Shown: positions 4,929 to 51,645 of the stretch, in pieces
Position numbering within the stretch: position 1 is the first letter of the stretch
Layout of the letters: every line of letters starts with the position of its first letter
From: Candidatus Daviesbacteria bacterium RIFCSPLOWO2_01_FULL_39_23
Lineage (GTDB): Bacteria > Patescibacteriota > Microgenomatia > Daviesbacterales > UBA10151
Direction of reading: 5' to 3'
Length of the DNA: 64,000 bases
NCBI GenBank assembly: GCA_001776935.1
Contig: MFDN01000001.1
Coordinates: 165,449 to 229,448, forward strand
The notes under the pieces: model-generated
What the model was told of the DNA's origin: nothing
Database searches by the model: none
The model's input: only the letters and a program-made list of their open reading frames with translations
Translations under genes and position numbers: made by a program

Positions 4929-4935
4929 TGAAAAG

Positions 4936-6425: not shown

Positions 6426-6430
6426 TTTAA

Positions 6431-7760: not shown

Positions 7761-7800
7761 AATTTGTAAAATGTAATAGATTCAAATTATAATAATTGAT
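7761..7800. promoter_or_regulatory. Divergent intergenic region with a promoter-like TTGTAA-N18-TATAAT element reading into the NeuB-like operon.
   Basis: ttgtaaaatgtaatagattcaaattataat lies 7 nt upstream of the 7801 ATG. This is a 40-nt gap between divergently transcribed operons. I see no clear Shine-Dalgarno sequence. Confidence 0.25.
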
Positions 7801-10743: not shown

Positions 10744-10744
10744 T

Positions 10745-11401: not shown

Positions 11402-11402
11402 C

Positions 11403-14946: not shown

Positions 14947-16781
14947 TTTAACCATCCGCTGAACATAACCATCATCCAAATAAGTTTAGAGTTATCTTGT
15001 TTTCTCATCTTATGATTTTGCCAACACTCTGAAATCTTGCTTTTATCAAAATAATCAAAAATCCTTTTATTTTGTAAGTGTTCAGTTACAAGTTCTTCCA
15101 GATCGCCGGTTATCCATTTAGCAAGGGGAATACCAAATCCCTTTTTTGGTCTATTAAAAATTTCAGGCGGGAATTTATCTCTTAGAAGAGCCCTTAAAAC
15201 TCTTTTGGTTTCAACTATATTCACGTGAGAATTTAGGCTATAAGCATTTTCTATGAGTTCATTATCCAAAAAAGGAACTCTTACTTCTAAGGAGTTATAC
15301 ATAGATGCTCTATCTACTTTTACCAGCAGATCATCTTTAAGGTAAGTTTCAAAATCCAAAAGCTGCATTTGTGTGGTTAATTTTTTTGTATTTGACTCGA
15401 TTCTTTTTATAAGGTTTTTCAGAAAATCTGATTCAAAAGGTTCTGTTTCAGTACTAAATAACTTGTTATTTAATAACTTATGATTATAATTTTTTAAGGA
15501 CATCCAAAGAAGATGTCTTTTAAACGGGGGATAATGCATTCCTTTAATAAACTCTTTCAAAATCTCAGTCTTTGGATAGTTTTTAGAAGATACAGGTAAA
15601 ACATTAAGAAGGTTTAACAGGTGTTTAGCAGCAGTATTAGGAACTATTTTTTTAAGTTGTTCAGCGTATAAGTGTCCCTGATAAGTGGGATATCCTCCAA
15701 ACAGTTCATCTCCCCCGTCTCCGCTTAAAACCACTTTTACAAATTTACTGGCCAAAGCGCAAACTTTATAGGTTGGGAGAAGTGAAGGGTCCGCCAGGGG
15801 TTCATCTAACTTTTTTGTAATATTTGGAAAAAGATTTAATACATCTTTGGAGTTAAAGGTTTCAAAATGATGTTTTGTGCCTAATTGTTTCGCAACAGCG
15901 TTTGCGTATAAGGACTCATCAAAACTTTTTTCTTCGAAATTTATTGAAAAAGTATTTATCCCCTTTTTAATATTTTTTGTTAAATAATAGGCAACCAGAC
16001 TGGAATCAATCCCCCCGCTTAAAAGAATCCCTATTGGTACATCAGAGATTGAATGGGTCATGACAGCTTTCTCCAGTAAAGAGTCTATATTTTTACCTAT
16101 ATGAATTTTATCTGATTTCAATTCGTAATAGGTGTTTAGTTGCTTTCCTTTTTTGGAAAATATTAAATTTTGCCCAGGTAGCAATTTATGAATATTTTCA
16201 AATATTGTTGATTCTCCGAAAATATAGCCCAGTGAAGAATAAGTTTTTAAAGCTTGAAGATTTATGATTTTTTTCACTTGAGGATGAATTAAAATTGTTT
16301 TTAATTCAGAGCCGAAAAGTAAAAGATTGCCTTTTTGTAAGTAGTAAAGAGGTTTGATGCCTGAAGGATCTCTTGAGATAAAAATTAAATTTTTCTTTTT
16401 ATCCCAAATTGCAAAAGCAAACATACCTTTTAAATATTTGGGCATCTCAAAACCGTAAGCTTTGTAAGCATGTATTAATACTTCAGTATCGGATTTGGTT
16501 TTAAATTTATGACCTTTTTCCTTAAGAGACTGTTTAAGTTCCAAAAAATTGTAAATTTCTCCGTTAAAAACAACAGTTATTGTTTTGTCGCTGTTTTGCA
16601 TTGGCTGATTTCCTGTTTTTAGATCAATAATGCTAAGTCTTTGAATGCCTAAAGCAACATTTTCTTCAATATAGATACCTGTTTGATCAGGTCCCCGATA
16701 GGCAATTTCCTGAAGCATTTTTGCAACAAGATGTTTTTGAGGCTGATGATTGTAGTCTACATATCCTGCTATGCCGCACAT
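14931..16781 (-). CDS. Asparagine synthetase (glutamine-hydrolysing)-family amidotransferase, AsnB/WbpS-like.
   Basis: The N-terminal MCGIAGY class-II GATase nucleophile, a PP-loop SGGIDSS motif, and 616 aa. AsnB paralogs in glycan clusters amidate uronic acids. Confidence 0.85.
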   Translation of the reverse strand: MCGIAGYVDYNHQPQKHLVAKMLQEIAYRGPDQTGIYIEENVALGIQRLSIIDLKTGNQPMQNSDKTITVVFNGEIYNFLELKQSLKEKGHKFKTKSDTEVLIHAYKAYGFEMPKYLKGMFAFAIWDKKKNLIFISRDPSGIKPLYYLQKGNLLLFGSELKTILIHPQVKKIINLQALKTYSSLGYIFGESTIFENIHKLLPGQNLIFSKKGKQLNTYYELKSDKIHIGKNIDSLLEKAVMTHSISDVPIGILLSGGIDSSLVAYYLTKNIKKGINTFSINFEEKSFDESLYANAVAKQLGTKHHFETFNSKDVLNLFPNITKKLDEPLADPSLLPTYKVCALASKFVKVVLSGDGGDELFGGYPTYQGHLYAEQLKKIVPNTAAKHLLNLLNVLPVSSKNYPKTEILKEFIKGMHYPPFKRHLLWMSLKNYNHKLLNNKLFSTETEPFESDFLKNLIKRIESNTKKLTTQMQLLDFETYLKDDLLVKVDRASMYNSLEVRVPFLDNELIENAYSLNSHVNIVETKRVLRALLRDKFPPEIFNRPKKGFGIPLAKWITGDLEELVTEHLQNKRIFDYFDKSKISECWQNHKMRKQDNSKLIWMMVMFSGWLNQWFR

Positions 16782-19440: not shown

Positions 19441-20367
19441 TTAAAAACCAAAAAGGTAATAATTATTTTTCAGTTGGAGAATTTCCTGATTATACCACTG
19501 CTTCTTTTTCATCTTTTTTCGGAAATCTGCAAAATATTTACGGTTATCTACTTTCCCAAAAAAAGCTTGATAACTAATGAGATGCGAATCCACTTTATCA
19601 ATAAGCGGATATATTTTTTTTCTAATAGGTAGAGGCGATTCGCTTAATGACCAGGTCGCGATAAATAATTTTTTTCCTTTCTTAGGGATAATTTTTTTAA
19701 CTTCATTAAGATTACTTTTGCAAAGTATTTTTGCTTTTTTTGACATATTGCTTGGATTAACATCAAGTCCATTCATTTTCAAAAAAAAGGCTTGAAGAGT
19801 CGAAAAAACCGGCAGATCGAATATAATATAATTTCCTTTAAACCCAAGGTTATGGATGAGTTGACACATGCTTCCGTACCCACCGCCAAATTCAAAAATA
19901 GAATCAAAATCTTCTATCCTCTGGCCGCTGATTTTTTCAAACCTGGCAATATGGTAAGCTTGATGTATTAAATTTCCGCTGCTGCCCGGATACAGTATAT
20001 ATGGTTCTGTTGGAACATAGTTGCTTTCTAATATTGTTTTTTTCCATTTATTCCAATTATTTATTCTAAGGTATAGGAATTCTTTTATGGTAAACAGGGC
20101 ATTACCGATAAACATAGTTTTTCTAATAACATTCCATTGCAAAAAGTTTTTAGGATTCTCTGAAAGTATCTGTTTTTTTAGCATTAAAATATTTCCTAAC
20201 CACTGATTATCAGTTAGCTTATTTTTTTTAGGAATAAAAATTGCCTTAGTATTTTTTCTTAATTCTTCTATCAGGAATTTCTCATCAGGATTATTTTTCA
20301 TCCGTAGATTATTGAAAGGGATTAAGCTCTTGCGGAAGAATAAATCAATATATTGGAATATAGACAT
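19441..20367 (-). CDS. Putative class-I SAM-dependent methyltransferase (sugar O-methyltransferase-like).
   Basis: The motif-I-like IFEFGGGYGSMCQLI is followed by an acidic beta-2 end (IIFDLPV). There is no other recognisable family signature, so this is a weak call. Confidence 0.35.
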   Translation of the reverse strand: MSIFQYIDLFFRKSLIPFNNLRMKNNPDEKFLIEELRKNTKAIFIPKKNKLTDNQWLGNILMLKKQILSENPKNFLQWNVIRKTMFIGNALFTIKEFLYLRINNWNKWKKTILESNYVPTEPYILYPGSSGNLIHQAYHIARFEKISGQRIEDFDSIFEFGGGYGSMCQLIHNLGFKGNYIIFDLPVFSTLQAFFLKMNGLDVNPSNMSKKAKILCKSNLNEVKKIIPKKGKKLFIATWSLSESPLPIRKKIYPLIDKVDSHLISYQAFFGKVDNRKYFADFRKKMKKKQWYNQEILQLKNNYYLFGF

Positions 20368-20488
20368 TTTACAGCGTCTTAAAAGGCAGAAAAAATTATA
20401 TTAATTTTTCAGGTTAAAGACAATGGGCAACAAGAGGGAATTTGTGGTAATCTGAAGGAGTTGAATTATAGCTTTAATTAAAGAGAGA

Positions 20489-21403
20489 TTAGGGGAATAA
20501 ATGATCGCCTTCGCCCCGAATATATTTCTTTTGACGGTCGAAAACAAAAAAAGGAATATTTCCTAAATAAGCAGCTAGAGAGCCAAAGGTGCTGTTTGAA
20601 CCAATAATTTCATTACACATGGATAAAGTGAGCAGGTCTTCTATCATAGAGCCAATGCCCAGTTTGATGTTTAAGCCTTTAAAAGGGTGTAAGCTTAACG
20701 GGCCATCTGAACAAATTACAAAGACCGTCTTTTTTGGATCTTTATGCCTTTTCTCTAAATAAGCCCTCAAGATGTTTGCGACTTCTTCTTCGTTAAAATA
20801 CCAGGTACCGTTCATGAAATCTTTACTTTTATAATCACCCTGACGGATATGAACCCCGATAAGATTATTTTTTCCGCCTATCTGTTTTATGAAATTTTCT
20901 GTTTTTTTTACAATCGCTTCTTTAGGTTGAAAAGCTTTGATAAGTTGTTTTCTGTACTTTTTAAGACCAACAGGGTTTCTAAAAGCCCAGCCATCCAAGT
21001 AAACTCTATTTTTTTCAAGCTCGATTTGTTTAAGGATATGGTTATGATTCCGATTTTTATCGGGAGAAGGCGGTAAAAAAAATATATTTTTTGGATCATC
21101 TTTTACAATTAACCCATTTTGAAAAAAAGTTATAGCATGGGTGAAAAAACGATAAAGAATATAAAATGTAGCATGTGATTTATAAAATTTAAATTTACTC
21201 AAAGAACTAAACAATTTTGAGAAAAAACCAGGAGCAGAAAAATTGAAGTGTTTATTATATGCATAAAAAGAAGGATTTATGCACATGTAATTTTTTTCCA
21301 GGCAATAGGCGTAAACACTGGTAAAAAGCAGAAGTTGATTGCCCAGCTGGCCGCCATTATGACGGAGGATAATGATTTGTTTGTTTTGGTTATATCGGGA
21401 CAT
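20489..21403 (-). CDS. GT11-like alpha-1,2-fucosyltransferase family glycosyltransferase.
   Basis: IGVHIRQGDY matches the GT11 HxRRGDY motif, and the C-terminal GSNSTFGSLAAYLG matches the GT11 motif-III region. 304 aa. Confidence 0.6.
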   Translation of the reverse strand: MSRYNQNKQIIILRHNGGQLGNQLLLFTSVYAYCLEKNYMCINPSFYAYNKHFNFSAPGFFSKLFSSLSKFKFYKSHATFYILYRFFTHAITFFQNGLIVKDDPKNIFFLPPSPDKNRNHNHILKQIELEKNRVYLDGWAFRNPVGLKKYRKQLIKAFQPKEAIVKKTENFIKQIGGKNNLIGVHIRQGDYKSKDFMNGTWYFNEEEVANILRAYLEKRHKDPKKTVFVICSDGPLSLHPFKGLNIKLGIGSMIEDLLTLSMCNEIIGSNSTFGSLAAYLGNIPFFVFDRQKKYIRGEGDHLFP

Positions 21404-21509
21404 ATGGTCTTTAATCTGATAATTAACTAGATTATATCGTACTTGTTACCATTTAAGAAGTAAGGTTGCAACGTTTATTTATTGCAAGGTTTTAGGTTAT
21501 AATCGTTTT

Positions 21510-22421
21510 GTGATTATTTATAGATATCTTATATTTCTTTTGTATGTATTAAATCACCCTTTCGCTAAAGGTCACAAATTAAGACTTTTTACAAAAATGA
21601 TTTGGTGGAAGATTAACAGAAGGTTTTTTAAATTACCCTGTATCGTGGAGTTGGTACACAATATTAAGATAATCTGCTATCCGAACGATTCTCTTTATAG
21701 TACCTTGATTGTTTATTTAATACTTCCTGAATATGGAGAAATGAAGTTTCTATTGGAAATTTTAAATAAGGATGACAATTTTATAGATATTGGAGCTAAT
21801 ATGGGCATTTATTCTTTATTGGCATCCTCAAAAATCGAGAAGGGAAGAATTTTTTCATTCGAGCCTTCTCCCAAGATTCTACCTCAGCTCTATGAAAATA
21901 TTGCCTTAAATAATAAAAAAAATTGCATTAGAGTAATAGAAAAAGCAGTATCCGGAAAAGAGGGATACATTAATTTTGATGTGAGTGATAGTCCGGATTA
22001 TAACCATATTGTTTATCCGAAAGAAGCTGAAGTTTCTTTCGCAGGTGATTCGGTCTTGCGTGTAGGAACTATTACTTTGGATAAATTTATTTCCGGCAAA
22101 AACATTAAAAATATTAAGCTGATAAAAATAGATGTTGAAGGGGCGGAACTCCTGGTTTTAAAAGGCTTACAGAAAACGCTTGAGGAGAAAAAGGTTGCTG
22201 CCTTAATTGTTGAGATAAGCAAATGGACAATTAGCCGGTTTGGCACGACAGTTGAAGAGATAGTTTATTTTCTTCGTAAATACGGGTTTGATATCTATAT
22301 GTTCGATAAGAATTTTAATCTAATTGAATTGTCATCAGGCAAAAACCAAGGTTGGAATATAATTGCCATACATAAGAGCAGGAATGATATTATTAAAAGG
22401 TTTAATAGGAATACTAAATGA
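21510..22421 (+). CDS. FkbM-family methyltransferase.
   Basis: FIDIGANMGIYSL (motif I) and IKLIKIDVEGAELLVLKG (the FkbM signature). The true start may be an internal Met. Confidence 0.7.
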   Translation: MIIYRYLIFLLYVLNHPFAKGHKLRLFTKMIWWKINRRFFKLPCIVELVHNIKIICYPNDSLYSTLIVYLILPEYGEMKFLLEILNKDDNFIDIGANMGIYSLLASSKIEKGRIFSFEPSPKILPQLYENIALNNKKNCIRVIEKAVSGKEGYINFDVSDSPDYNHIVYPKEAEVSFAGDSVLRVGTITLDKFISGKNIKNIKLIKIDVEGAELLVLKGLQKTLEEKKVAALIVEISKWTISRFGTTVEEIVYFLRKYGFDIYMFDKNFNLIELSSGKNQGWNIIAIHKSRNDIIKRFNRNTK

Positions 22422-24496
22422 AAAAACTGTTTTTATGCTACTTTGTTTTTCTGTTTAGCCTGCTATCGATTTTCTCAGCGGGAGTCATTGATTCAATTGA
22501 TGGGTTTCAATATCTAGTAGTTGCCAGAAGCATCTATTACAAAGGCGCACCGACTGCCCCTCCGTATGAATATTCTGAAAGGAAAAATATTCATATGTCA
22601 GTAGTAACAGGTAAGGACGGTAAAACTTACAGTTTAACTGGTCTGGGTTTTTCTCTGGCTTATCTTCCGGCAGTAGCTATAACAGATATTGTTTACAAAA
22701 TTTACGGCATTGATCCATCCGTGCATTTCCCTTTAGAAAATGACTGGCTAATATTTTTAACGGCTGGTTTTACCAATGCATTTTTCGGAGCTCTCTTAGG
22801 AATAATTTTATTTGCATATTTCTTGACATTGGGACTTAGTAAAAAACAGGCAATTTTGATGAGTATTATCTCAATAATTGCCACTAATTTATTTGTATAT
22901 ACCAAACATTCAATGGCTCATATGATGTTTGTTGCATTTTTAATGTTGTCTTTTTTATTGATCAAGTTTTATTCAATCAAAGGGAAGTGGTGGCTGATGT
23001 CTGCTTCGGGCTTATCTTTCGGTATACTTATGATTACTTATAACCCTACTTTTATTCTTGCAATTCCGCCATTGTTTTTATATTACATATTGCTGATTAA
23101 GCATCACTGGAATAAAGAATCTTTAAATTTGATACTTAAGGACATCTCGGTATTTTTTATCGGTTTATTTCCTTTTATATTAATATATAACTGGTTTGAA
23201 AGTTTAAGAACAGTTCAGCAAACTACAAATTTAGCTTTAATAGGTACAAGATATTTAGTTTATAAAGTGCCGTTGTCGGTTTTTTTTGAGGGAATTTATG
23301 GTCAATTATTAAGTCCCGGCAGAAGTATATTCATTTATTCTCCTGTACTGTTAATGATTATATTTTTCTGGCATAAGATACGAAAAAATGTTTATCCTGA
23401 GCTTTTCGCTTTTACTTTTTATTCTATAATTCTGGTAGCTTTTTATTCAAAAGCCTACACAATTGGAAGCCCTGATCAGGGAATTGCCGCCCTGTGGCAC
23501 GGGGAGTCGAGTTGGGGACCCAGATACCTGACTCCTGTGATACCTTTGGGCTTATTAGTAATAGCAGGTACATATAGATTTTTCTCAAAAAAAGTTAGAT
23601 ATTTTATATTCTATCCTTTAGTAGTAATTGGGATTTTTATAGAAATACTTGGAATATTAATGCCTTATCAGACTAAGTATTTTAATTTACAACGCAAATT
23701 TTACGTTAATAGTACCGAATACGGAGCTGCTCTTTATAGTGATCTTCTGCCCCGATACACCCCGATTCTTAATATGTCAAAAAATGTAGTAAATCTAGCC
23801 AAAAATTTTCCTAACACTTATGATCACGGAAAACATAATGTTAAATTTTATGATGGTATAGATTTTCCTTTTAACGTTGGACAGGAAAGATGGAGAGCAA
23901 TCGAGGGCAAAGGATATATTTCCTTTGATAACAACCAAAACGACTTTGTAGAGGAGTTAAGCTTTGGACTTATTAATCATCCTATAGCCGAATCCTCATC
24001 ATCTGCAAAACTGCAATTTGTATTAAACGATGTGAATCTTCTTGAAACTCCTCTTGAGTTGGGCATAACCGAGAGAAAAATAATTAAAATACCCCTTAGG
24101 AAAAATTTGGTGCAGCCAGAAGATAACAAGTTGGAAATTATAGTTAACTATGAAGACCCTGAGGTGCTTACTAAAACAAAACAGATTTTAGGGTTGCAAT
24201 CTTTTGATATTAACAGTCAGAGACAAAATCTGGAAAGTATTGATGTTCCTTATGTATCAGCACTCGGGCCTAAAATTGCCGGTGTGACCTATCAAAATTG
24301 GGGTGGAACAAACACAGATCCCTGGAAAGCCTGGGATATTCATACTCAGGTGTTTGAAAGATTGCCGGATTTTTGGTGGATAAGAAACTTATATTATTGG
24401 GATATACCAAAGGTGTGGATTGTGATTCCATTTATTTTAAATCTGGCTATATTTATCCTTGCCGCAATTAAATTGAAAAAGGAGGTAAGTCGTTGA
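22418..24496 (+). CDS. Polytopic membrane protein with a C-terminal extracytoplasmic domain, GT-C-like putative glycosyltransferase.
   Basis: 692 aa. About 12 TM helices in the first 440 aa are followed by a soluble domain of about 230 aa and a terminal TM helix. The architecture resembles GT-C enzymes, but I see no diagnostic motif. Confidence 0.45.
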   Translation: MKKLFLCYFVFLFSLLSIFSAGVIDSIDGFQYLVVARSIYYKGAPTAPPYEYSERKNIHMSVVTGKDGKTYSLTGLGFSLAYLPAVAITDIVYKIYGIDPSVHFPLENDWLIFLTAGFTNAFFGALLGIILFAYFLTLGLSKKQAILMSIISIIATNLFVYTKHSMAHMMFVAFLMLSFLLIKFYSIKGKWWLMSASGLSFGILMITYNPTFILAIPPLFLYYILLIKHHWNKESLNLILKDISVFFIGLFPFILIYNWFESLRTVQQTTNLALIGTRYLVYKVPLSVFFEGIYGQLLSPGRSIFIYSPVLLMIIFFWHKIRKNVYPELFAFTFYSIILVAFYSKAYTIGSPDQGIAALWHGESSWGPRYLTPVIPLGLLVIAGTYRFFSKKVRYFIFYPLVVIGIFIEILGILMPYQTKYFNLQRKFYVNSTEYGAALYSDLLPRYTPILNMSKNVVNLAKNFPNTYDHGKHNVKFYDGIDFPFNVGQERWRAIEGKGYISFDNNQNDFVEELSFGLINHPIAESSSSAKLQFVLNDVNLLETPLELGITERKIIKIPLRKNLVQPEDNKLEIIVNYEDPEVLTKTKQILGLQSFDINSQRQNLESIDVPYVSALGPKIAGVTYQNWGGTNTDPWKAWDIHTQVFERLPDFWWIRNLYYWDIPKVWIVIPFILNLAIFILAAIKLKKEVSR

Positions 24497-24534
24497 TAAA
24501 AGTTCTAAAAGACTATACAATGAATCTATAAAAT

Positions 24535-25854
24535 ATGATGAGAAGATCCGTTGGGGAAAAAATAGTATATGTGGGAATGTCAGCGGATTTTATACATCAT
24601 GGGCATATAAATATTATCTCGACAGCAAGAAAACTGGGAAAAGTGGTTGTCGGGCTTTTAACCGATGAGGCGATCGCAAGCTATAAAAGAGTTCCCATTC
24701 TGACTTTTGAGCAAAGAAAACAGATTATTGAGAATTTAGCCGGTGTTGATAAGGTTATTCCACAAAAAACCCTTGATTATGTCGAGAATCTGAAGAAAGT
24801 GAAACCTGATTTTGTAGTCCACGGAGATGATTGGAAAACAGGAGTGCAGCGGGAAACAAGAGAAAGAGTAATAAGAGTTTTAAAGGAATGGGGAGGTAAA
24901 TTGGTTGAGCCACGTTATACTTCAGGAATTTCTTCTACACAGCTTATTAATAGTTCAATTAGAGAAGGGGTTAGTCCATCTTATCGGATAAGAGAATTCC
25001 GTAGAATGCTCGAACTTAAGCCAATTGTCAGAATCATGGAAGCGCATAACGGATTAACTGGGCTTATAATAGAAAAGACTAATGTTCAAAGAAGAGGACG
25101 GCTGGTGACATTTGACGGTATGTGGGAGAGCAGCTTAACGGATTCTGCTTCAAAAGGAAAACCAGATACATCAGCTGTTGATGTAACGTCCAGACTGCAG
25201 ACAATAGAACAGATTTTAGAAGTAACGACAAAACCGCTTGTGGTGGATGGAGATAACGGAGGGGTGCCGGAGCACTTTGTTTTTACAGTTAAATCATTAG
25301 AGAGGCTGGGGGTATCAGCTGTTGTTATTGAAGATAAAATTGGGATTAAAAGAAATTCCCTTTTTGGAACTGATGTTGACCAGACCCAGGATTCAATAGA
25401 GGCTTTTTGTGAAAAAATTAACAGAGGTAAAAAAGCACAGGTCGAAACTGATTTTATGATTATAGCCCGTATTGAAAGTCTGATTTTAAAACAGGGGATA
25501 GCTGATGCTTTAAAAAGAGCGAAGAATTACATTAAAGCTGGAGCTGATGGGATATTAATACACAGCAAAGAAAAAACGCCGGATGAAATTTTTGAATTCT
25601 GCAAGGAATATCAGAAATTTGAGTATAAGGTGCCTCTTACTGTAGTTCCCTCAACATTCAGCAGTGTGAGAGAAGAGGAGTTTGAAAAAGCAGGTGTGAG
25701 GATGGTAATTTATGCAAATCAGCTTTTACGGAGTGCATATCCTGCCATGCAAAATACTGCAGAGCTGATATTAAAGAATGGGCGTGCTCAGGAGGCGGAT
25801 GAGTTGTGCTTGCCGATAGGGGAGGTTATAAAACTAATCCCTGATTCTCAATGA
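24535..25854 (+). CDS. Bifunctional cytidylyltransferase / phosphoenolpyruvate phosphomutase (Fom1-like CyTase-PepM fusion).
   Basis: The N-terminal HxGH nucleotidyltransferase domain ([10 protein letters not shown], TagD/GCT-like) is fused to an isocitrate-lyase-superfamily domain ([12 protein letters not shown]) that contains [12 protein letters not shown]. That matches EDKX5NS, the PepM-specific motif. Confidence 0.85.
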
Positions 25855-26954
25855 TTAATTCCGAAGAATTTACCACTTGCTTAATTAAACATAATTTAGG
25901 ACTTGTTATTGAGGTTCCTTGTTCTTACCTGAAAGATATTCTTAATTACCTGAATCAAACAAAAAGGCTTGAAGTTATTAATCCGGTAAATGAGGCGCTG
26001 GTAATGGGAATTGCTTCCGGATATTATTTATCAACGGGAAAAATTCCCATTGTGGCCTTACAGAACTCAGGATTTATGAATACCCTGAATGCTTTAACAT
26101 CTTTAAATCAGCTGTATCAGATCCCTGTTTTTTACCTGATTACCTGGAGAGGGGAGCTGGGCCACGATGCGCCCGAACACGACATTACAGGGCTAAAAAT
26201 GGAAGAATACTTAAAAACTTTTGACCTGCCTTATGAAATTGTCAGTGAGTCAAAATATCAAAACCAAATTAGTAAACTTGCAGATATAGCAATAAAAACT
26301 AAAAAACCGGTTGCTTTAGTTATTAGAAAAGGTTCATTTGAAGCTTTCCCTTCTCTTTTAAAACCAGAGGAAAATTACTTTTCCAGATATGAAGCTATAA
26401 AACTGATTAAAGAAAGCTCGGGCGGGGCGCTTTGCATCTCATCTACAGGTTTTCCTTCAAGGGACTCATTTTCAGTTTTAGATTCACCGGATTTTTATAT
26501 GGTTGGTTCGATGGGGCATACATTTTCTATTGCACTGGGGATAGCTCCTAATACAAAAAAGAAAATAGTTGTGTTGGATGGTGAGGGATCGTCATTGATG
26601 CATCTGGGGGGTCTTGCTTCTTTTAATCCCGATAGGATTAAAAACATTAATTACTTTATCTTAGATAATGAAGGGTACGAGAGTACAGGGGGCCAACCAA
26701 CGGTTTCGCCTAATGTTAATTTTAAATTGCTTGCAAAATCGTTTAACTTTAAAAACATTTATGAGGTTTCAAAAGAAGCTGGATTAAAAGAGGTATTAAG
26801 GAAGTTAAAGACAGCAAAAGAATCATCATTTATCCACGTAAAGATAGTAAACAGTAGTCAGAAAGTATCCGAGAAAAGGGTTTCTGATAAATACACCTGT
26901 CCTCAAATTAAAGAGAGGTTTATGGAGAACTTCAAACGTGTTAAAAATCATTAA
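25851..26954 (+). CDS. Phosphonopyruvate decarboxylase (ThDP-dependent, fused alpha/beta form).
   Basis: 367 aa with a ThDP-binding GDG-like segment ([20 protein letters not shown]). It resembles the Ppd/sulfopyruvate decarboxylase (ComDE) family, overlaps the PepM fusion by 4 nt, and is followed by an iron alcohol dehydrogenase. Confidence 0.8.
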
Positions 26955-28074
26955 CCCCCAAAGAAAATCAAGTTACCAATTACCCACAAAAGTTTATTTT
27001 GGAAGAGGAGCTATCGATCTGTTCCCTGAAATAATTCAAGAAAGAAAATTTAAAAAATTACTTTTGGTGGCAGGGGAACATTTTAAAAAATCAAATAAAT
27101 TCAATGAAATTGTGCGGAAAATTAAAGATGTGAAAATTTATGAAAATGTAGTAAAAAGATGTGATTTTATAAATATTAATAAGCTTATCAAATTTTGCAG
27201 AGAGGATTCGTTTGATGCAATTGCAGCTATTGGAGGAGGAACGGTGTTGGATGCTGTAAAATGTGCTTCGGCCGTATCCGTCGATGGCTGTTTGGTAGAA
27301 GATTATTTGATTTCCAAGAAAAAAGAAGTTTCCAGGAAGGGTTTATCTTTTTTAGCAATTCCTACTACTGCCGGTACGGGCAGCGAGGTAACGCCATGGG
27401 CAACTGTTTGGGATAAAGGCAAGAAGTATTCTCTGGATTCGAAATATATTTTTCCCGAGGTAGCAATAGTTGACCCTGCTTTAACAGATTCGCTTTCAAA
27501 AAACCTTACGTCTGAACCTGGGATAGATGCTCTGTGTCAGGCGATCGAAGCTTATTGGAACATCCACAACAATGCTATCTCGGATAAATACGCCTTAGAA
27601 TCTATCAAAATAATTTTAATGAATCTGGAGCAGGCTGTTAATAACCCTGAGCCCAAAGTAAGAGATGCAATGGCTTGGGGCTCGCTTTTAGCAGGATTAG
27701 CTTTTTCTAATACAAGGACAACAATATGTCACGCTGTTTCTTATCCGATGACTGCTCATTGGAGTATTCCTCACGGACAAGCGACTTCAATTACTTTGCC
27801 GTTGTTTATTAAATATGTATTTCCCGTATTGTCAAAGGGAAAGCTGTCTAAAATTTTAAGCGCGATGAAGGTAAAAAATATTATAGAAGCATCACAAATA
27901 ATAAATGACCTTATGATTGGAATTGGATTAAAAACAAAATTTTCCGATTTGGGTATTACAAAAAAAGATGTAGATTTAATAGTTGAGGAAGGGTTCGATC
28001 CAAGCCGGTCAAAAAATACTCCAAAAGTTCCTTCCCCCTTGGAGCTAGAAGAAATGCTTTATAGTATTTTATAA
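26938..28074 (+). CDS. Group-III iron-containing alcohol dehydrogenase, predicted phosphonoacetaldehyde reductase (PhpC/FomC-like).
   Basis: Fe-ADH signatures: AIGGGTVLDAVK, AIPTTAGTGSEVT, and a His cluster (CHAVSYPMTAHWSIPHGQA). Its position right after PepM and Ppd mirrors 2-hydroxyethylphosphonate pathways. Confidence 0.7.
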   Translation: MLKIINPQRKSSYQLPTKVYFGRGAIDLFPEIIQERKFKKLLLVAGEHFKKSNKFNEIVRKIKDVKIYENVVKRCDFININKLIKFCREDSFDAIAAIGGGTVLDAVKCASAVSVDGCLVEDYLISKKKEVSRKGLSFLAIPTTAGTGSEVTPWATVWDKGKKYSLDSKYIFPEVAIVDPALTDSLSKNLTSEPGIDALCQAIEAYWNIHNNAISDKYALESIKIILMNLEQAVNNPEPKVRDAMAWGSLLAGLAFSNTRTTICHAVSYPMTAHWSIPHGQATSITLPLFIKYVFPVLSKGKLSKILSAMKVKNIIEASQIINDLMIGIGLKTKFSDLGITKKDVDLIVEEGFDPSRSKNTPKVPSPLELEEMLYSIL

Positions 28075-28088
28075 ATCTGTTTGCTAGA

Positions 28089-29468
28089 ATGATGTCTGGT
28101 ATGAAGCCTAATATGTGGAAAGAGACTTGCTTATTCTGTAAGGAAATAGTGCATCTATTTTTATATTGGATTGCCCATAGGATGCCTCTCAGTAATAGGA
28201 TTTGGATTTTCGGATCCTGGTTTGGTGAAACTTATAATGACAACAGCAAATATATATTTGAATACGTCAACGCAAATCTTCCAGATATTACCGCTGTATG
28301 GCTAAGCAGAAAAAAAGACATTGTTTTAAACGTGAGAAGGAGAGGATATAAGGCTTATTGTTTTTACAGCTTATCGGGAATTTGGTATGCCTTGCGGGCA
28401 GGTGTGGCAATATTTTGTGTTGGCTACACTGCAGATTTGCCGGGATTTTGCATATCAAATTCCAAAAAGTTAATTCAGTTATGGCATGGGATTGGTACAA
28501 AGAAAATAGGTGTAATGAATACAAAGCAAAAAGACACCAATAAAAAAATATATCCTTATATCCAAAATCCTTATCTAACGAAAATAATTCTACGCTTATC
28601 AAAAATATTATTTAACTCAACTGCAACCAAGATAAACCATTTAGTTTATAAATTAGAACTTTTTCAAAACTACACCTTTTTCCCTACGCTGTCTCCGAGT
28701 ACTAAAAAAATGGCAGTTGAATCATTTAATCTTCCGAATGAGAAGGTTATTATTACCGGGTCACCGAGGAACGACGGTCTTTTTGGCAATAAATTTATAA
28801 TCACCGGCAAAATTTCTAAAATCATCGAGGATGTCCACAATAGCAATGGTTTTATTGGTTTTTATATGCCTACTCATAGACAAGAAGGCGGTGAGGAGAT
28901 GCTGAAGGTAATTAATGATAATTTAAGATCATGTCAAAAAATGCTTGAAGAGAAAAATATTTATCTGTTTGTAAAATTGCATCAATTTCATCAATCTGAA
29001 TCAAGCTCTGAGCATTTTAAAAACATAATCTATGTCAGTAGTCAGGATTTAAATGATGACATATATCCATTCTTACCAAAGACTGATTTTTTGATAACTG
29101 ATTATTCAACCATTTATATTGATTATCTTTTAGTCAACAAGCCGGTTGTTTTTCTAAATTACGATCTTGAGAGATACACAGCTTTAGACAGAGAACTTTT
29201 TTTTCCTTATGAAGAGGTAACCCCCGGACCAAAAGTGTCTTCTTGGGAGCAGCTTATTCCAACACTGAGTAAACAACTTAAAAAAGATAACTATAAAAAG
29301 CAACGCCAAAAAATGAAAGAATTTTTTCATACATACCCTGATGGTAACAGTAGTAGGCGTATTGCAGAGAAGATTTACAATTCGTTTATAACCGCTTCGC
29401 CAAAACCACGTACTCTTAGTGCGTGGATGAAGGCCCGCTTCGCAAGCGAAGCGAGGCGAGCGAAGTAA
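28089..29468 (+). CDS. TagF/TagB-family CDP-alcohol (glycerophosphate-type) transferase-like protein.
   Basis: YMPTHRQEGG matches the TagF-family YxPTxR motif. Overall length and a C-terminal GT-B-like half (ITDYSTIYIDYLLVNKPVVFLNYDLERY) fit PF04464. The last 15 or so codons run into a GC-rich hairpin element. Confidence 0.75.
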   Translation: MMSGMKPNMWKETCLFCKEIVHLFLYWIAHRMPLSNRIWIFGSWFGETYNDNSKYIFEYVNANLPDITAVWLSRKKDIVLNVRRRGYKAYCFYSLSGIWYALRAGVAIFCVGYTADLPGFCISNSKKLIQLWHGIGTKKIGVMNTKQKDTNKKIYPYIQNPYLTKIILRLSKILFNSTATKINHLVYKLELFQNYTFFPTLSPSTKKMAVESFNLPNEKVIITGSPRNDGLFGNKFIITGKISKIIEDVHNSNGFIGFYMPTHRQEGGEEMLKVINDNLRSCQKMLEEKNIYLFVKLHQFHQSESSSEHFKNIIYVSSQDLNDDIYPFLPKTDFLITDYSTIYIDYLLVNKPVVFLNYDLERYTALDRELFFPYEEVTPGPKVSSWEQLIPTLSKQLKKDNYKKQRQKMKEFFHTYPDGNSSRRIAEKIYNSFITASPKPRTLSAWMKARFASEARRAK

Positions 29469-29556
29469 GGTTACAGTCTTCCGCGGCATTTGGTGACGAA
29501 GCGGTCGTAAACTTTGACAGAAAACCGTGGCTTAAAAGCCGCGGAGGTTTATAGTA
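29431..29556. terminator. GC-rich nested hairpin cluster between convergent genes; probable bidirectional intrinsic terminator.
   Basis: cgcttcgc-aa-gcgaagcg (29436-29453) forms a hairpin. tccgcggc (29480-29487) pairs with gccgcgga (29538-29545). ccgtggc-ttaaaa-gccgcgg (29525-29544) is followed by GGTTTAT on the plus strand and precedes TTTTCTGTC on the minus strand. The whole segment is markedly GC-rich in an AT-rich genome. Confidence 0.4.
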
Positions 29557-29557
29557 A

Positions 29558-30568
29558 TTAATTAGGCAGATTTAATTTATGAAAACAAATTATATCACCA
29601 TCAGGTAAACCTTGAGAATATTTTTTTATTTCAATTAGGTCTAACTTCTTATTCTTTACTTTTAAATACTGTTTATAACCTAATTTTTGCATAAACATAA
29701 ATGCTTTTTGAAGGTTTTTAAAGTTACCAAACCTTTCTAAGACAGGAGAATGTTCATAAAAAACTATCGGTCGGCTTTTCTTAATAGTTTCCCTGCCTCC
29801 TTTTAGGACCTTTAAGTCAGCTCCTTCCGCATCAATCTTGATAAATTCTATTTTTTTAATTTTATTTTCTTTTACATACCTATCAATGGTGGAAGCGTTA
29901 ACAATCTTCTCACTTATTTTATAGGTAAGGTTTGCTACTATTGTTGACAGGCCGTCATTACGAAGTCCATTGTCTTGCACGGCACGATTTATATTAAGTG
30001 TTACCTTTTCGGTTGCTGGATTATCCTGTAAAGCCATTTCCTCCACGATAATATTGCTGAAACTATTTAGTTTGATATTTTTTTTCAGTTGGCTTACAAC
30101 TTTTTCGTCAGGATCAAAGGAATAAACTTTTCCCAGGGGAACACATTTTTTTGCAAATGGTAAACTAAGTAAACCTGCATTTGCGCCAACATCAAAAATT
30201 ACCGAATCTTTATTTATTAATCCTTTAAGTTTTGTGCATAACCAACCGTTAAATATTCCGTTTTTAACAATTGCATTATCCAAAACAGAATTTGGCCGAA
30301 TCCAATATTTAATATTATATAAACCAGTAAAGACATATGGGGGTTTATGGTCATAAACCTTTGCTAATTTAACTTTTTTACCCTCACCAGATTCTTTTAG
30401 AATTTTGATCAATTTTTTTTCATCAATGCCATTGGGTTTTATTATGCTTCTCATCATTTTTAAATAATGATTGAGGCCAACTTCGTCAGGTTCTCTTTCT
30501 AAAGCCGTTAAGTAGCATCTGCGGATTATCTCTTTATTTTTTTTAGTAAAACCAAAGATTTTGAACAT
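29558..30568 (-). CDS. FkbM-family methyltransferase (second copy).
   Basis: VIFDVGANAGLLSL (motif I) and IEFIKIDAEGADLKVLKGG (the FkbM signature). 336 aa. Confidence 0.7.
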   Translation of the reverse strand: MFKIFGFTKKNKEIIRRCYLTALEREPDEVGLNHYLKMMRSIIKPNGIDEKKLIKILKESGEGKKVKLAKVYDHKPPYVFTGLYNIKYWIRPNSVLDNAIVKNGIFNGWLCTKLKGLINKDSVIFDVGANAGLLSLPFAKKCVPLGKVYSFDPDEKVVSQLKKNIKLNSFSNIIVEEMALQDNPATEKVTLNINRAVQDNGLRNDGLSTIVANLTYKISEKIVNASTIDRYVKENKIKKIEFIKIDAEGADLKVLKGGRETIKKSRPIVFYEHSPVLERFGNFKNLQKAFMFMQKLGYKQYLKVKNKKLDLIEIKKYSQGLPDGDIICFHKLNLPN

Positions 30569-30691
30569 GAAGGAAAGTTAATAAATAGCAATAAATGACT
30601 GATAATAAACAATTATATTGTAATTCTTTAATCTATGAAAATCAACTTTTATAGCCGCAAAAAATTATTCGAGGTCTTGTAATAGTTATAA

Positions 30692-32641
30692 GTGAAATAT
30701 ATACTTTTGATAATGTTTCTAACTGATTTCCTGCTTTTTATTGTCTTTCAATTGTTGATTGTTTATCCGTTGGGCAAGACTATCTTAAATTTTATGGGAA
30801 TGAAGTTTTGGTTAATTCCCAGCCTTGTTTTTGGGGTAAATATTGGTATTGTTGTTTTAACAATAGCTGCTTTAATTTTAGGCTATACAAATAATTATTA
30901 TTTACTGCCATTAATAGCTGTAATCTCCTTAATCCTATTTTTTCTTCAAATAAGAAATATAAAATTTTCAAAGTTTAATATAAGGGGAATCCTAAAATTG
31001 CCGGATTTAGTTGTTATATCAACAATCCTGTTATGTGTTTTAATACAGTCATTCATAGTGTTTCCTAATGGGGTGAGTACTGGTGGAATCTTACGGGTTA
31101 AAAATGTTTTTACAGAGGATGGTATGTGGCATATTGCAATAATAAATAACCTTAAAAAATCTATTCCTCCCTCAAACCCTATTTTTGCAGGGGAAAAATT
31201 AACAAATTATAACTATTTTTCAGATATCTATATTGCTGTAATACAAAAATTTACACATATCAAGACTCTAACTTTGTATTTCAAATTAATAGGCCCTTTC
31301 TTGGCCCTTCTTTGTGCCGTGTCACTTTATTTTATTTTGAAGGTGCTTACAGGGAATCAAATAATAGCCGGAATGGGAGTTTTACTGATTACATTGGCCA
31401 GTACATATTACTATATATTTGGAATTTTTAAGCCCGGTTTGAATATTAACCCAAGTACTTTTTTTGGGAATGATTATGTCAGCAGGATGGTGAATTACCA
31501 ACTATCGTTCTCGTATTTAATTATTACAAGTTTTTTGTACCTTTTGCTTCACAGAAAAGATTCGTTTAGATTTATCATAATTGCATCGTTTCTTATTAGT
31601 AGCGGGATTGGTTTTAAGTCGTACGGGACAATCCTTATTATTCCGGCTTTATATATAGTCGGGTTTTATAATATATTCAGAAAAAAATTTGACTTAATTA
31701 AGATTGCGTTTTTAAGCAGTATTTTTATAGCAGTTTTAGTTTATCTATTTTTAGGGAGCGGTCAGGCTATAAAAACTGTATTCACCTTTGACCCGTTTTG
31801 GTTGATAGGGAATATATTCACTGACCCATTAAGATTCAGTTCTGCTGGCTGGGCAGCAAGCAGGAGTTACTATTTAGATAGTAACAATTATCCAGGTATT
31901 GCGTACCTTTACTTTAAAGGTTTAGTAATTTTTCTTTTTACTCAGTTCGGATTAAAAATTTTGGGGTTTTTATATATCTTGAAGATTAAAGAGAATAAGG
32001 AGAGAGATGTAATATTATTAATATCCATTATCGCATTAACCGGTATTATTATGCCGCTTATTTTTACTCAAGGGGGGGTAAAGTGGAATACGATACAATT
32101 TATCTGGTATTCAAGCTTTGGTTTAGGGATACTTTCAGTCTTATTGATTTCAGGTTTTCAAAAGAAAATAGGATTAAAGCTAATTTTGATTATACTGTTG
32201 TCTGTATGGGTTTCTTATCTACCGGGGGTATTACACTATAGTAAATTTTATTTATCAGATGCAGGTAACTTAACAACATATAATTTTCAAGGTACGCAGG
32301 AATCTTATAAAGCTGCAAGGTTTTTATCTGGTCAGCCTGATGGCGTATTACTCTTAGACTCAAAATACTCACAAACCCCTTTTATTATGGCAATTTCGGA
32401 AAAGAATGCTTACTTTGCCGATGAAAGCATATTATCAAATCTGTTTTTGGATTGGTATACCAGGGACCAAAGAACGAAACTTTTTTTTGATAATTTTACA
32501 AGCAGCGAGTATAAGGAAAAATTCCTGAAAGAAAACAATATTTCTTATGTCTTTACAGCTAAGGATACTTTAAGGCCAGCAAGATATTTGGATAATATTT
32601 TCAATAATGATGAAGTATGGATATACAGAACAAAGTTTTAA
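30692..32641 (+). CDS. Polytopic membrane protein with a C-terminal soluble domain, GT-C-like putative glycosyltransferase.
   Basis: 649 aa. About 13 TM helices are followed by a soluble tail of about 140 aa. No diagnostic motif is recognised. Confidence 0.4.
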   Translation: MKYILLIMFLTDFLLFIVFQLLIVYPLGKTILNFMGMKFWLIPSLVFGVNIGIVVLTIAALILGYTNNYYLLPLIAVISLILFFLQIRNIKFSKFNIRGILKLPDLVVISTILLCVLIQSFIVFPNGVSTGGILRVKNVFTEDGMWHIAIINNLKKSIPPSNPIFAGEKLTNYNYFSDIYIAVIQKFTHIKTLTLYFKLIGPFLALLCAVSLYFILKVLTGNQIIAGMGVLLITLASTYYYIFGIFKPGLNINPSTFFGNDYVSRMVNYQLSFSYLIITSFLYLLLHRKDSFRFIIIASFLISSGIGFKSYGTILIIPALYIVGFYNIFRKKFDLIKIAFLSSIFIAVLVYLFLGSGQAIKTVFTFDPFWLIGNIFTDPLRFSSAGWAASRSYYLDSNNYPGIAYLYFKGLVIFLFTQFGLKILGFLYILKIKENKERDVILLISIIALTGIIMPLIFTQGGVKWNTIQFIWYSSFGLGILSVLLISGFQKKIGLKLILIILLSVWVSYLPGVLHYSKFYLSDAGNLTTYNFQGTQESYKAARFLSGQPDGVLLLDSKYSQTPFIMAISEKNAYFADESILSNLFLDWYTRDQRTKLFFDNFTSSEYKEKFLKENNISYVFTAKDTLRPARYLDNIFNNDEVWIYRTKF

Positions 32642-48367: not shown

Positions 48368-48369
48368 AT

Positions 48370-51455: not shown

Positions 51456-51645
51456 AAACGGCTTCTATGATTAGCAGTAACTATTTTCCGAGAAAGGGGA
51501 TTGTTATTTTTGTTTTAATATTGTTTGTTTTATTTATTCTACAATTTATTTCATCAAAATTTTTTCCTTTAATTTGATGTTTTAGGAGGAAGCTATTTGC
51601 ATACTTGGGGGTGCGGACCGATCTTTTTGTACCCACAGATTTTAA

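What the first reader, a model, noticed from the sequence alone, without database searches (positions are those of the whole stretch)
24535..25854. Fom1-type nucleotidyltransferase-PEP mutase fusion outside an antibiotic cluster.
One ORF encodes both the HxGH cytidylyltransferase domain ([10 protein letters not shown]) and the PepM domain ([12 protein letters not shown] ... [10 protein letters not shown]). In fosfomycin biosynthesis this fusion transiently cytidylylates HEP. Here it sits in a glycan island. Cytidylylation in this setting would activate the phosphonate for transfer rather than for further tailoring.
Basis: partly seen in the sequence, partly recalled or inferred. Interest (0 to 1): 0.6.

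Follow-up and report, generated by a model that had tools for sequence, protein, structure and literature searches.

The report
Common HEP-phosphonate cassette for glycan decoration
The gene is a real cytidylyltransferase–PEP mutase fusion, but it belongs to a widespread, already catalogued gene cassette that makes an activated phosphonate (CMP-2-hydroxyethylphosphonate), most likely to decorate a cell-surface sugar polymer, so it is an ordinary member of a known kind.

Summary
Window 24535-25854 (+) is one 439-aa ORF. Its N-terminal HxGH cytidylyltransferase domain (aa 8-144) is 70% identical to the crystallised Fom1 CyTase domain. Its C-terminal domain (aa 153-437) is a bona fide PEP mutase with every catalytic residue I checked. 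It heads a co-directional run: phosphonopyruvate decarboxylase, Fe-alcohol dehydrogenase, then a TagF-family (PF04464) phosphotransferase. This sits inside a large glycan island.

- The fusion-Ppd-ADH trio recurs across many bacterial and archaeal phyla.
- A TagF-like gene is the very next gene in 25 of 54 loci with enough sequence. LicD or CDP-alcohol phosphatidyltransferases take that place in others.
- No radical-SAM (Fom3-type) gene was detected. No stand-alone TagD-like cytidylyltransferase was found in the window.

It is not novel. Rice et al. 2019 found 23.6% of all PEP mutases fused to this domain and linked cytidylylation to surface tailoring. HEP-glycans are known from Glycomyces and Stackebrandtia, and congeners of both carry 63%-identical orthologues. 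Fom1's CyTase domain is nested within this family, so the antibiotic context is the exception. Only the transferase step is untested.

The parts
21510..22421 (+). FkbM-family SAM methyltransferase. Its stop overlaps the next gene's start by 4 bp. It is a probable sugar O-methyltransferase of the same co-directional run.
   Evidence: PF05050 E=3e-25; coordinates. Its role is inferred.
22418..24496 (+). 692-aa polytopic membrane protein (about 9 TM-like segments), weakly PMT/GT-C-like. It is conserved near the cassette in the two closest loci.
   Evidence: PF02366 E=1.3e-4, below the cutoff. TM count. 59% identity in L002 and 39% in L001. Function not established.
24535..25854 (+). Bifunctional CyTase-PEP mutase (Fom1-type), 439 aa, one ORF.
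24556..24966 (+). N-terminal GCT/TagD-class cytidylyltransferase domain (aa 8-144). HxGH at H21-H24; YTSGISST at aa 128-135. Predicted reaction: HEP + CTP -> CMP-HEP + PPi.
   Evidence: 70% identity to Fom1 CyTase 5x3d (E=3e-61). Far weaker matches to ECT 3elb (4e-22) and TagD 1coz/2b7l (about 1e-10). There is no LicC-type (PF12804/PF00483) match.
24991..25845 (+). C-terminal PEP mutase domain (aa 153-437) with the EDKxxxxxNS motif at aa 266-275. Reaction: PEP -> phosphonopyruvate.
   Evidence: TIGR02320 scores above its cutoff. Mytilus PepM residues W44, S46, L48, D58, D85, D87, E114, K120, N122, S123, R159 and H190 align to identical residues in the query. Only G47 differs (S200).
25851..26954 (+). 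Phosphonopyruvate decarboxylase (fused alpha/beta TPP enzyme). Its start overlaps the fusion's stop by 4 bp.
   Evidence: The best NCBIfam hit is TIGR03297 (277 bits, below the 312.5 cutoff). The only PDB hits are the PnPy decarboxylase alpha and beta subunits of 9iz3 (E=4e-25 and 2e-19).
26938..28074 (+). Group III Fe-alcohol dehydrogenase. Predicted phosphonoacetaldehyde reductase (PhpC/FomC-like) producing HEP.
   Evidence: PF00465 and PF25137. The best NCBIfam hit is TIGR03405 Phn_Fe-ADH (246 bits, below its cutoff). PDB hits are generic Fe-ADHs. It follows Ppd in 60 related loci. Substrate is inferred.
28089..29468 (+). TagF/TarF-family phosphotransferase (PF04464). Predicted to transfer the 2-hydroxyethylphosphonyl group from CMP-HEP to a glycan hydroxyl, releasing CMP.
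   Evidence: PF04464 E=1.5e-54. PDB matches: TarL 8va1 2.5e-17 and TagF 3l7j 9e-11. H133 and H298 are near-invariant across 44 cassette-linked homologues. Orthologues lie directly after the ADH in L001 (74% identity) and L002 (79%). Donor specificity is inferred.
29558..30568 (-). Second FkbM-family methyltransferase, convergent with the cassette.
   Evidence: PF05050 E=2e-22.
30692..32641 (+). 649-aa polytopic membrane protein (about 12 TM-like segments) with no Pfam family. A 63%-identical orthologue follows the TagF-like gene in L002.
   Evidence: Function unknown.

Best explanation
This is a four-enzyme cassette that makes and installs 2-hydroxyethylphosphonate (HEP) on a cell-surface glycan.
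1. The C-terminal domain of the fusion isomerises PEP to phosphonopyruvate. This assignment is shown by sequence.
2. Ppd decarboxylates phosphonopyruvate to phosphonoacetaldehyde, pulling the unfavourable mutase equilibrium. The family assignment is strong.
3. The Fe-ADH reduces phosphonoacetaldehyde to HEP. This is inferred from context and the best family hit.
4. The N-terminal domain of the fusion condenses HEP with CTP to give CMP-HEP, a CDP-alcohol analogue whose beta-phosphorus is the phosphonate. This is inferred from 70% identity to the Fom1 domain, for which that activity is reported.
5. The adjacent TagF-family enzyme uses CMP-HEP as it would CDP-glycerol. It transfers the phosphonyl group to a sugar hydroxyl of a lipid-linked glycan on the cytoplasmic face and releases CMP. 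This step is inferred and has not been shown for any member.

The flanking FkbM methyltransferases and polytopic membrane proteins probably tailor and assemble the same polymer. The product would be a phosphonate monoester-decorated polysaccharide of the kind isolated from Glycomyces and Stackebrandtia.
For: - Domain and residue evidence.
- Tight gene packing (4-bp and 17-bp overlaps, a 14-bp gap) in one orientation.
- Ppd's only PDB hits are PnPy decarboxylase subunits.
- In 80 related genome loci (61-86% identity, Bacteria and Archaea), tblastn finds Ppd in 75 and the Fe-ADH in 72. Sixty loci show the strict order fusion>Ppd>ADH.
- Of 54 loci with at least 1.4 kb after the ADH, 25 have a PF04464 gene as the very next gene and 35 have one somewhere in the fetched locus. 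42 of 44 candidates were confirmed by Pfam.
- Where the next gene is not TagF-like, it includes LicD (4 loci) and CDP-alcohol phosphatidyltransferase (3 loci). Both are transferases that use CMP-linked donors.
- No stand-alone TagD-like cytidylyltransferase was found in the window. Its only other cytidylyltransferase is a CMP-nonulosonate-type PF02348. Only 1 of the 80 loci has a stand-alone PF01467 gene nearby.
- No radical-SAM or B12 (Fom3-like) gene was detected in the window.
- Orthologues occur in Glycomyces paridis (L072) and Ca. Stackebrandtia faecavium (L058), each with Ppd, ADH and a PF04464 gene. HEP-bearing exopolysaccharide is reported from Stackebrandtia (PMC8942020) and from two actinomycetes (Yu et al. 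2014, as cited in PMC13576164).
Against: - No biochemical data exist for this protein or for any PF04464 enzyme with CMP-HEP, as far as the held literature shows.
- Ppd and the ADH score below the NCBIfam equivalog cutoffs.
- A TagF-like gene was not found in 19 of the 54 loci with at least 1.4 kb after the ADH, so it is not obligatory.
- A CDP-glycerol or CDP-ribitol synthase encoded elsewhere in the genome could feed the TagF-like enzyme. IspD/TarI-type synthases were not searched for in the related loci.
- PF01467-fused mutases also occur in AEP-type clusters (PMC8942020), so the domain class alone does not fix HEP as the substrate.
Confidence: 0.7

Rival explanations
1. The TagF-like enzyme is an ordinary CDP-glycerol or CDP-ribitol phosphotransferase that builds a teichoic-acid-like or capsule segment. 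CMP-HEP is then consumed by a different, unidentified transferase, for example one of the unannotated membrane proteins. Alternatively, HEP is attached to glycerol units.
For: All characterised PF04464 members use CDP-alditols; the PDB hits are TarL, TagF, Bcs3 and Cps3D. From my memory of Yu et al. 2014 (paper not held), a HEP mono(2,3-dihydroxypropyl) ester was released from both actinomycete glycans, so glycerol may be part of such polymers. Several nearby ORFs have no family assignment.
Against: No stand-alone TagD-like gene was detected in the 64-kb window, and only 1 of 80 related loci has one. The TagF-like gene lies immediately after the HEP genes in 25 of 54 loci across unrelated phyla. 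That pattern is hard to explain without a functional link.
Confidence: 0.15
2. The N-terminal domain activates another phosphonate or phosphate (AEP, phosphonoacetaldehyde-derived products, or methylphosphonate after further conversion) rather than HEP.
For: PF01467-Ppm fusions also occur in AEP-transaminase neighbourhoods (PMC8942020). The ADH's substrate is only inferred.
Against: The domain is 70% identical to the HEP-specific Fom1 domain, and the two share a Tyr where ECT and CCT have the Arg of the RTxG(I/V)STT motif. Neither a class-V aminotransferase (AEPT) nor an MpnS/HEPD-type gene was detected next to the cassette. An Fe-ADH was found by tblastn in 72 of the 80 closest loci.
Confidence: 0.08
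3. Cytidylylation is transient, as in fosfomycin biosynthesis. CMP-HEP is a carrier for further tailoring, and a small-molecule phosphonate is then released.
For: This is the only role reported for this domain in the literature consulted (Fom1; Cho et al. 2017, cited in PMC6697681). Two methyltransferases flank the cassette.
Against: No radical-SAM/cobalamin methyltransferase was detected in the window, and nothing was recognised as a FomD- or Fom4-type gene. The FkbM enzymes are O-methyltransferase-type. Every assignable neighbour is a glycan-assembly gene.
Confidence: 0.04
4. CMP-HEP is a head-group donor for a phosphonolipid rather than a glycan.
For: CDP-alcohol phosphatidyltransferase genes follow the trio in 3 related loci.
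Against: No PF01066 gene was found in this window. Here the neighbour is TagF-like and the surroundings are glycan genes.
Confidence: 0.03

Closest known systems
Fom1 of Streptomyces wedmorensis (fosfomycin pathway; CyTase-domain structure PDB 5x3d)
   Same: The architecture is the same: an N-terminal PF01467 CyTase domain and a C-terminal PEP mutase domain in one polypeptide. The CyTase domains are 70% identical and share HxGH and Y-T-x-G-I-S-S-T. The partner enzymes Ppd (Fom2-like) and Fe-ADH (FomC-like) are also present.
   Different: No Fom3 (radical SAM/B12) gene was detected, and nothing was recognised as Fom4 or FomD. Instead, a TagF-like transferase and glycan-assembly genes are present. 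CMP-HEP is therefore predicted to be a donor, not a transient carrier. Fom1's CyTase domain is itself nested in this family and is closest to the Glycomyces and Stackebrandtia fusions (83% and 80%).
HEP-phosphonoglycan clusters of Glycomyces and Stackebrandtia (Yu et al. 2014, J Bacteriol; cited in PMC8942020 and PMC13576164)
   Same: Orthologous fusions (63% identity) with Ppd, Fe-ADH and a PF04464 gene occur in congeners (L072, L058). The product there is HEP ester-linked to an exopolysaccharide. From my memory of the abstract, that polysaccharide contains O-methylated galactose. Two FkbM methyltransferases flank the cassette here.
   Different: The host is different (a low-GC groundwater bacterium; the closest relatives are binned as Gammaproteobacteria). 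The surrounding glycan genes also differ (nonulosonic-acid pathway, ABC-2 exporter, many GT-C-like proteins). Gene order relative to the TagF-like gene differs. No product data exist.
PntC / Pnt phosphonyl-tailoring pathway (Rice et al. 2019, PMC6697681)
   Same: The logic is the same: a PEP mutase fused to a cytidylyltransferase makes a CMP-phosphonate for cell-surface tailoring, with LicD-like or glycosyl transferases nearby.
   Different: PntC is a LicC-type PF12804 enzyme specific for AEP. Here the domain is the unrelated GCT/TagD-type PF01467, the predicted substrate is HEP, and the transferase is PF04464.
TagD + TagF/TarF wall teichoic acid system
   Same: A GCT-class cytidylyltransferase is paired with a PF04464 phosphotransferase. 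The two conserved histidines of the family are retained (H133, H298).
   Different: The activated group would be a phosphonate (C-P) rather than glycerol phosphate. The cytidylyltransferase is fused to the first enzyme of the phosphonate pathway.

Membership tests
PEP mutase (TIGR02320 / PF13714 with Ppm motif) | Scores above the curated equivalog cutoff | tested here: met
   391.9 bits against a cutoff of 319.55.
PEP mutase (TIGR02320 / PF13714 with Ppm motif) | EDKxxxxxNS motif and catalytic/Mg2+ residues of Mytilus PepM (D58, D85, D87, E114, K120, N122, S123, R159, H190) | tested here: met
   [10 protein letters not shown] at aa 266-275. All listed residues are identical in the alignment to 1m1b. 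The residue list is from my own knowledge of the Mytilus structure papers.
GCT/TagD-class cytidylyltransferase (PF01467) | HxGH nucleotide-binding motif | tested here: met
   H21-H22-G23-H24, aligned to HPGH (Fom1), HYGH (ECT) and HWGH (TagD).
GCT/TagD-class cytidylyltransferase (PF01467) | C-terminal RTxGISTT-type motif | tested here: met
   YTSGISST at aa 128-135. The Arg is replaced by Tyr, exactly as in Fom1 (YTPGISST).
Fom1-type bifunctional CyTase-PepM | Both domains in one ORF, CyTase N-terminal | tested here: met
   The same architecture holds in all 120 best database homologues.
Fom1-type bifunctional CyTase-PepM | Cytidylylates HEP specifically | not testable with these tools
   Supported only by 70% identity to the Fom1 domain and by the adjacent Ppd and Fe-ADH.
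Fosfomycin biosynthetic cluster | Presence of Fom3 (radical SAM/B12 methyltransferase), Fom4 epoxidase and FomD hydrolase | tested here: not met
   No radical-SAM or B12 family hit appeared among the 63 ORFs of at least 100 aa scanned with Pfam, and nothing was recognised as Fom4- or FomD-type.
LicC/PntC-type phosphonate cytidylyltransferase (PF12804) | MobA-like NTP-transferase fold | tested here: not met
   No PF12804 or PF00483 hit in the protein.
TagF/TarF CDP-alditol phosphotransferase (PF04464), for the neighbour at 28089-29468 | Family HMM match and conserved catalytic histidines | tested here: met
   PF04464 E=1.5e-54. H133 (in WHG) and H298 (in K-x-H) are near-invariant in 44 homologues. 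Equating them with the TagF catalytic histidines is from memory.
TagF/TarF CDP-alditol phosphotransferase (PF04464), for the neighbour at 28089-29468 | Uses CDP-glycerol or CDP-ribitol as donor | not testable with these tools
   No stand-alone TagD-like gene was detected in the window, and only 1 of 80 related loci has one. CMP-HEP is proposed as the donor instead.
HEP-phosphonoglycan cassette | Fusion + Ppd + Fe-ADH + a CMP-donor transferase inside polysaccharide genes | tested here: met
HEP-phosphonoglycan cassette | HEP ester detected on a polysaccharide | not testable with these tools
   This needs 31P-NMR or MS of material from the organism or a heterologous host.

The most novel reading that the evidence does not exclude
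The PF04464 enzyme encoded next to the HEP genes is a dedicated CMP-HEP-dependent phosphonyl transferase, a donor class never demonstrated for the TagF family. Because HEP keeps a free 2-hydroxyl, the enzyme may add HEP units to each other. The result would be a teichoic-acid-like chain whose backbone contains phosphatase-resistant C-P bonds. On this reading, Fom1 and 'transient cytidylylation' in fosfomycin biosynthesis are evolutionary leftovers of this surface-polymer module.
Probability: 0.12. Interest if true: 0.7.

Novelty: new member of a known kind. Interest (0 to 1): 0.3.

Why it matters
HEP and methylphosphonate esters on polysaccharides are reported as a large pool of marine and environmental organic phosphorus and a source of aerobic methane (PMC8931226, PMC8942020). 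The steps after CMP activation are described as enigmatic (PMC6697681). This window adds nothing new about the fusion itself. The comparative result obtained here does nominate TagF-family enzymes as the missing CMP-HEP:glycan transferases: a compact fusion-Ppd-ADH-TagF cassette recurs from Gammaproteobacteria and CPR bacteria to Asgard and DPANN archaea. It also suggests that the fosfomycin enzyme Fom1 was recruited from this surface-glycan module. Both ideas can be tested with four recombinant proteins.

Tried and rejected
- Promoter and terminator scan of 20300-30800. Counts were no higher than in shuffles (38 vs 39.0 promoter-like; 4 vs 6.9 terminator-like). Operon boundaries therefore rest only on gene spacing.
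- tRNA scan of the window. None found, so there is no island-boundary clue.
- Reading Cho et al. 2017 (Fom1) and Yu et al. 2014 (phosphonoglycans). Neither paper is held. Statements about them come from citing papers or are marked as memory.
- Literature searches linking PF04464/TagF or teichoic acid with pepM or HEP. No relevant paper turned up. I cannot say the TagF link is unpublished, only that it was not found in the held library.
- A single-query tblastn for the TagF-like gene found it in only 9 of 80 loci. That undercounted. An iterated HMM plus Pfam confirmation raised the count to about 40 loci.
- The FkbM methyltransferases were not found in the related loci, and the two polytopic membrane proteins were found only in L001/L002. 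They are not core cassette parts.
- Considered and rejected: a frameshift or assembly artefact; a LicC-type domain; a fosfomycin-like cluster; MpnS/HEPD conversion to methylphosphonate (no such gene detected next to the cassette).
- Not done: structure prediction. Sequence matches to solved structures at E=1e-59 and 1e-42 already fix the folds and the domain boundary (linker about aa 145-152).
- Organism identity was not resolved beyond 'groundwater metagenome; closest relatives binned as Gammaproteobacteria'.
Full report
**Observation.** The ORF list shows a single 439-aa ORF at 24535..25854 on the + strand. Pfam finds PF01467 (CTP_transf_like, aa 16-138, E=9e-16) and PF13714 (PEP_mutase, aa 155-412, E=5e-57). 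The NCBIfam PEP-mutase equivalog TIGR02320 scores 391.9 bits, above its 319.55 cutoff.

Against solved structures, aa 8-144 match the crystallised cytidylyltransferase domain of Fom1 (5x3d) at E=1e-59, with 96 of 137 positions identical. aa 147-437 match the PEP mutases 5unc and 1m1b at E=3e-42 and 3e-38. The same N-terminal stretch matches ethanolamine-phosphate cytidylyltransferase (4e-22) and TagD-type glycerol-3-phosphate cytidylyltransferases (about 1e-10) much more weakly. It has no LicC-type (PF12804) signal. It is therefore a GCT/TagD-class domain of the Fom1 subtype.

The domain boundary falls at about aa 145-152. The Fom1 crystal construct ends opposite query residue 144, and the mutase models begin at aa 153-155.

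**Residue check.**
- The HxGH motif is H21-H24.
- The C-terminal signature is YTSGISST (aa 128-135). Tyr replaces the Arg seen in ECT and CCT, exactly as in Fom1 (YTPGISST).
- In the mutase domain, the residues I know as catalytic or metal-binding in Mytilus PepM are W44, S46, L48, D58, D85, D87, E114, K120, N122, S123, R159 and H190. All align to identical residues, and [10 protein letters not shown] is the Ppm-specific motif. Only G47 differs, as S200.

**Not an artefact.** The identical protein is indexed in 49 blocks of the assembly collection, and 24 contigs carrying it were read, among them groundwater metagenome ERZ909595 / SRR1658466. All 120 best database homologues (67-100% identity) have the same two-domain architecture. 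Seventy-eight fusion-length hits to the N-terminal domain were found among the ORFs of the related loci.

**Surroundings.** The fusion is followed, in the same orientation and nearly without spacers, by three genes.
- A fused alpha/beta TPP enzyme at 25851-26954. Its best family is phosphonopyruvate decarboxylase, and its only PDB hits are the PnPy decarboxylase subunits of 9iz3.
- A group III Fe-alcohol dehydrogenase at 26938-28074. Its best family is the phosphonate-cluster Fe-ADH TIGR03405, though below the cutoff.
- A PF04464 CDP-glycerol glycerophosphotransferase-family protein at 28089-29468, E=1.5e-54. It matches TarL, Bcs3 and TagF in the PDB.

Upstream in the same run lie an FkbM methyltransferase and a 692-aa polytopic membrane protein. 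Downstream lie a second FkbM methyltransferase and a 649-aa polytopic membrane protein.

The rest of the window is a very large glycan locus.
- A nonulosonic-acid pathway at 7801-13916, with a CMP-sugar synthetase at 5721-6425.
- A Wzx-like flippase and an ABC-2 exporter pair.
- Many GT2 and GT4 enzymes and several PMT_2/GT-C-like proteins.
- A Wzy_C protein and an initiating sugar transferase.

No radical-SAM or B12 enzyme was detected. Neither was an AEP-type class-V aminotransferase or a CDP-alcohol phosphatidyltransferase. No second TagD-like cytidylyltransferase was detected either.

**Comparative genomics.** A scan of species-representative genomes found 489 relatives. The best 80 loci (61-86% identity) come from a very broad range of organisms.
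- Bacteria: Gammaproteobacteria MAGs (closest, 86% and 82%), Parcubacteria, Saccharibacteria, Ignavibacteria, Bacteroidota, Spirochaetota, Cloacimonadota, Planctomycetota and Acidobacteria.
- Archaea: Asgard, Woesearchaeota and Thermoplasmatales.
- Cultured Alteromonas, Bowmanella and Daejeonella, plus Glycomyces paridis and Candidatus Stackebrandtia faecavium.

tblastn finds Ppd in 75 loci and the Fe-ADH in 72. Sixty loci show the strict order fusion>Ppd>ADH.

An iterated HMM seeded with the window's TagF-like protein found candidates in 41 loci. Pfam confirmed 42 of 44 of them as PF04464. Of 54 loci with at least 1.4 kb after the ADH, the TagF-like gene is the very next gene in 25 and lies somewhere in the fetched locus in 35. 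In the loci where the next gene is something else, it includes LicD (4), CDP-alcohol phosphatidyltransferase (3), extra NTP-transferases (3) and flippases. LicD, CDP-alcohol phosphatidyltransferases and TagF enzymes all use CMP-linked donors. Only one of the 80 loci has a stand-alone PF01467 gene. The near-invariant positions among the TagF-like proteins include H133 and H298. From memory, these correspond to the two catalytic histidines of TagF.

**Mechanism.** The best-supported reading is PEP -> phosphonopyruvate (mutase domain) -> phosphonoacetaldehyde (Ppd) -> HEP (Fe-ADH) -> CMP-HEP (CyTase domain) -> HEP phosphonate ester on a glycan hydroxyl, plus CMP (TagF-like enzyme).
- The first two assignments rest on strong sequence evidence.
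- The ADH substrate and the HEP specificity of the CyTase domain are inferred from context and from 70% identity to Fom1.
- The last step is inferred from gene linkage, and from the chemical analogy between CMP-HEP and CDP-glycerol.

I put 0.7 on the whole scheme. The main rival is that the TagF-like enzyme uses an ordinary CDP-alditol made elsewhere in the genome.

**What is already known.** Rice et al. 2019 (PMC6697681) inventoried fusions of 1485 non-redundant PEP mutases. They found 23.6% fused to PF01467, named Fom1 as the exemplar, and suggested that cytidylyltransferase enrichment reflects surface glycans and lipids. Li and Horsman 2022 (PMC8942020) classified 8.5% of ppm neighbourhoods as HEP-type, including pathogens. 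They noted the HEP conjugate on Stackebrandtia exopolysaccharide and listed PF01467-Ppm fusions. Database sources and MAG papers already label such genes 'phosphoenolpyruvate phosphomutase / 2-hydroxyethylphosphonate cytidylyltransferase'. So a Fom1-type fusion outside an antibiotic cluster is the common case.

My own comparison strengthens this. The Fom1 CyTase domain is 83% and 80% identical to the Glycomyces and Stackebrandtia fusions. Its 70% identity to the window protein ranks 35th of 81 sequences. Fom1 therefore sits inside the glycan-associated family.

**What I did not find in the held literature.** No paper linked PF04464 enzymes to CMP-HEP. The two most relevant subscription papers were not available, so this gap may only be apparent.

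**Verdict.** This is a new member of a known kind, of modest interest (0.3). The recurrent TagF linkage is the one testable lead.

Noticed in passing
window 24535-25854 compared with L072 and L058: The crystallised Fom1 CyTase domain is 83% identical to the Glycomyces paridis fusion and 80% to the Ca. Stackebrandtia fusion, but only 70% to the window protein (rank 35 of 81). The fosfomycin enzyme looks recruited from the actinobacterial HEP-glycan module.
   Followed up: partly
L003-L080 versus window 24535-29468: The fusion protein stays 61-71% identical across bacterial and archaeal phyla. Its operon partners Ppd, Fe-ADH and TagF-like drop to about 21-40%. This is a marked difference in evolutionary rate within one cassette, and it is unexplained.
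   Followed up: no
window 22418-24496, 30692-32641, 41639-43354, 44172-53526, 57081-59942: About eleven polytopic membrane proteins (7-12 TM-like segments each) lie in one glycan locus. They include a tandem run of three PMT_2/GT-C-like genes at 46967-51455, and several have no Pfam family. Only the 507-aa and 521-aa proteins are detectably related (27% identity).
   Followed up: partly
window 3454-13916: A nonulosonic-acid (pseudaminic/legionaminic-type) pathway is present: NeuB, formyltransferase, hydrolysing 2-epimerase, PIG-L deacetylase, hexapeptide acyltransferase, DegT aminotransferase and a PseB-like dehydratase. A CMP-sugar synthetase lies on the opposite strand. A HisH/HisF-like amidotransferase pair may make an acetamidino substituent; that role is from my general knowledge and was not tested.
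   Followed up: no
L003:11555-12274, L025:11617-12339, L026:4648-5358: In some Parcubacteria and archaeal loci, a second LicC-type nucleotidyltransferase (PF00483/PF12804, about 240 aa) follows the HEP trio. Two different cytidylyltransferase classes therefore coexist in one phosphonate cassette.
   Followed up: no
window 14931-16781 (-) and 34754-36019 (-): An asparagine-synthase-type amidotransferase and a flavin amine-oxidase-like protein are embedded among the glycan genes. They are probably sugar-tailoring enzymes of unknown specificity.
   Followed up: no
window 24493-24521: A sigma-70-like site (TTGATA-17-TACAAT) lies just upstream of the fusion's ATG, inside the 38-bp gap after the 692-aa gene. 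Such sites are no more frequent here than in shuffled sequence.
   Followed up: yes
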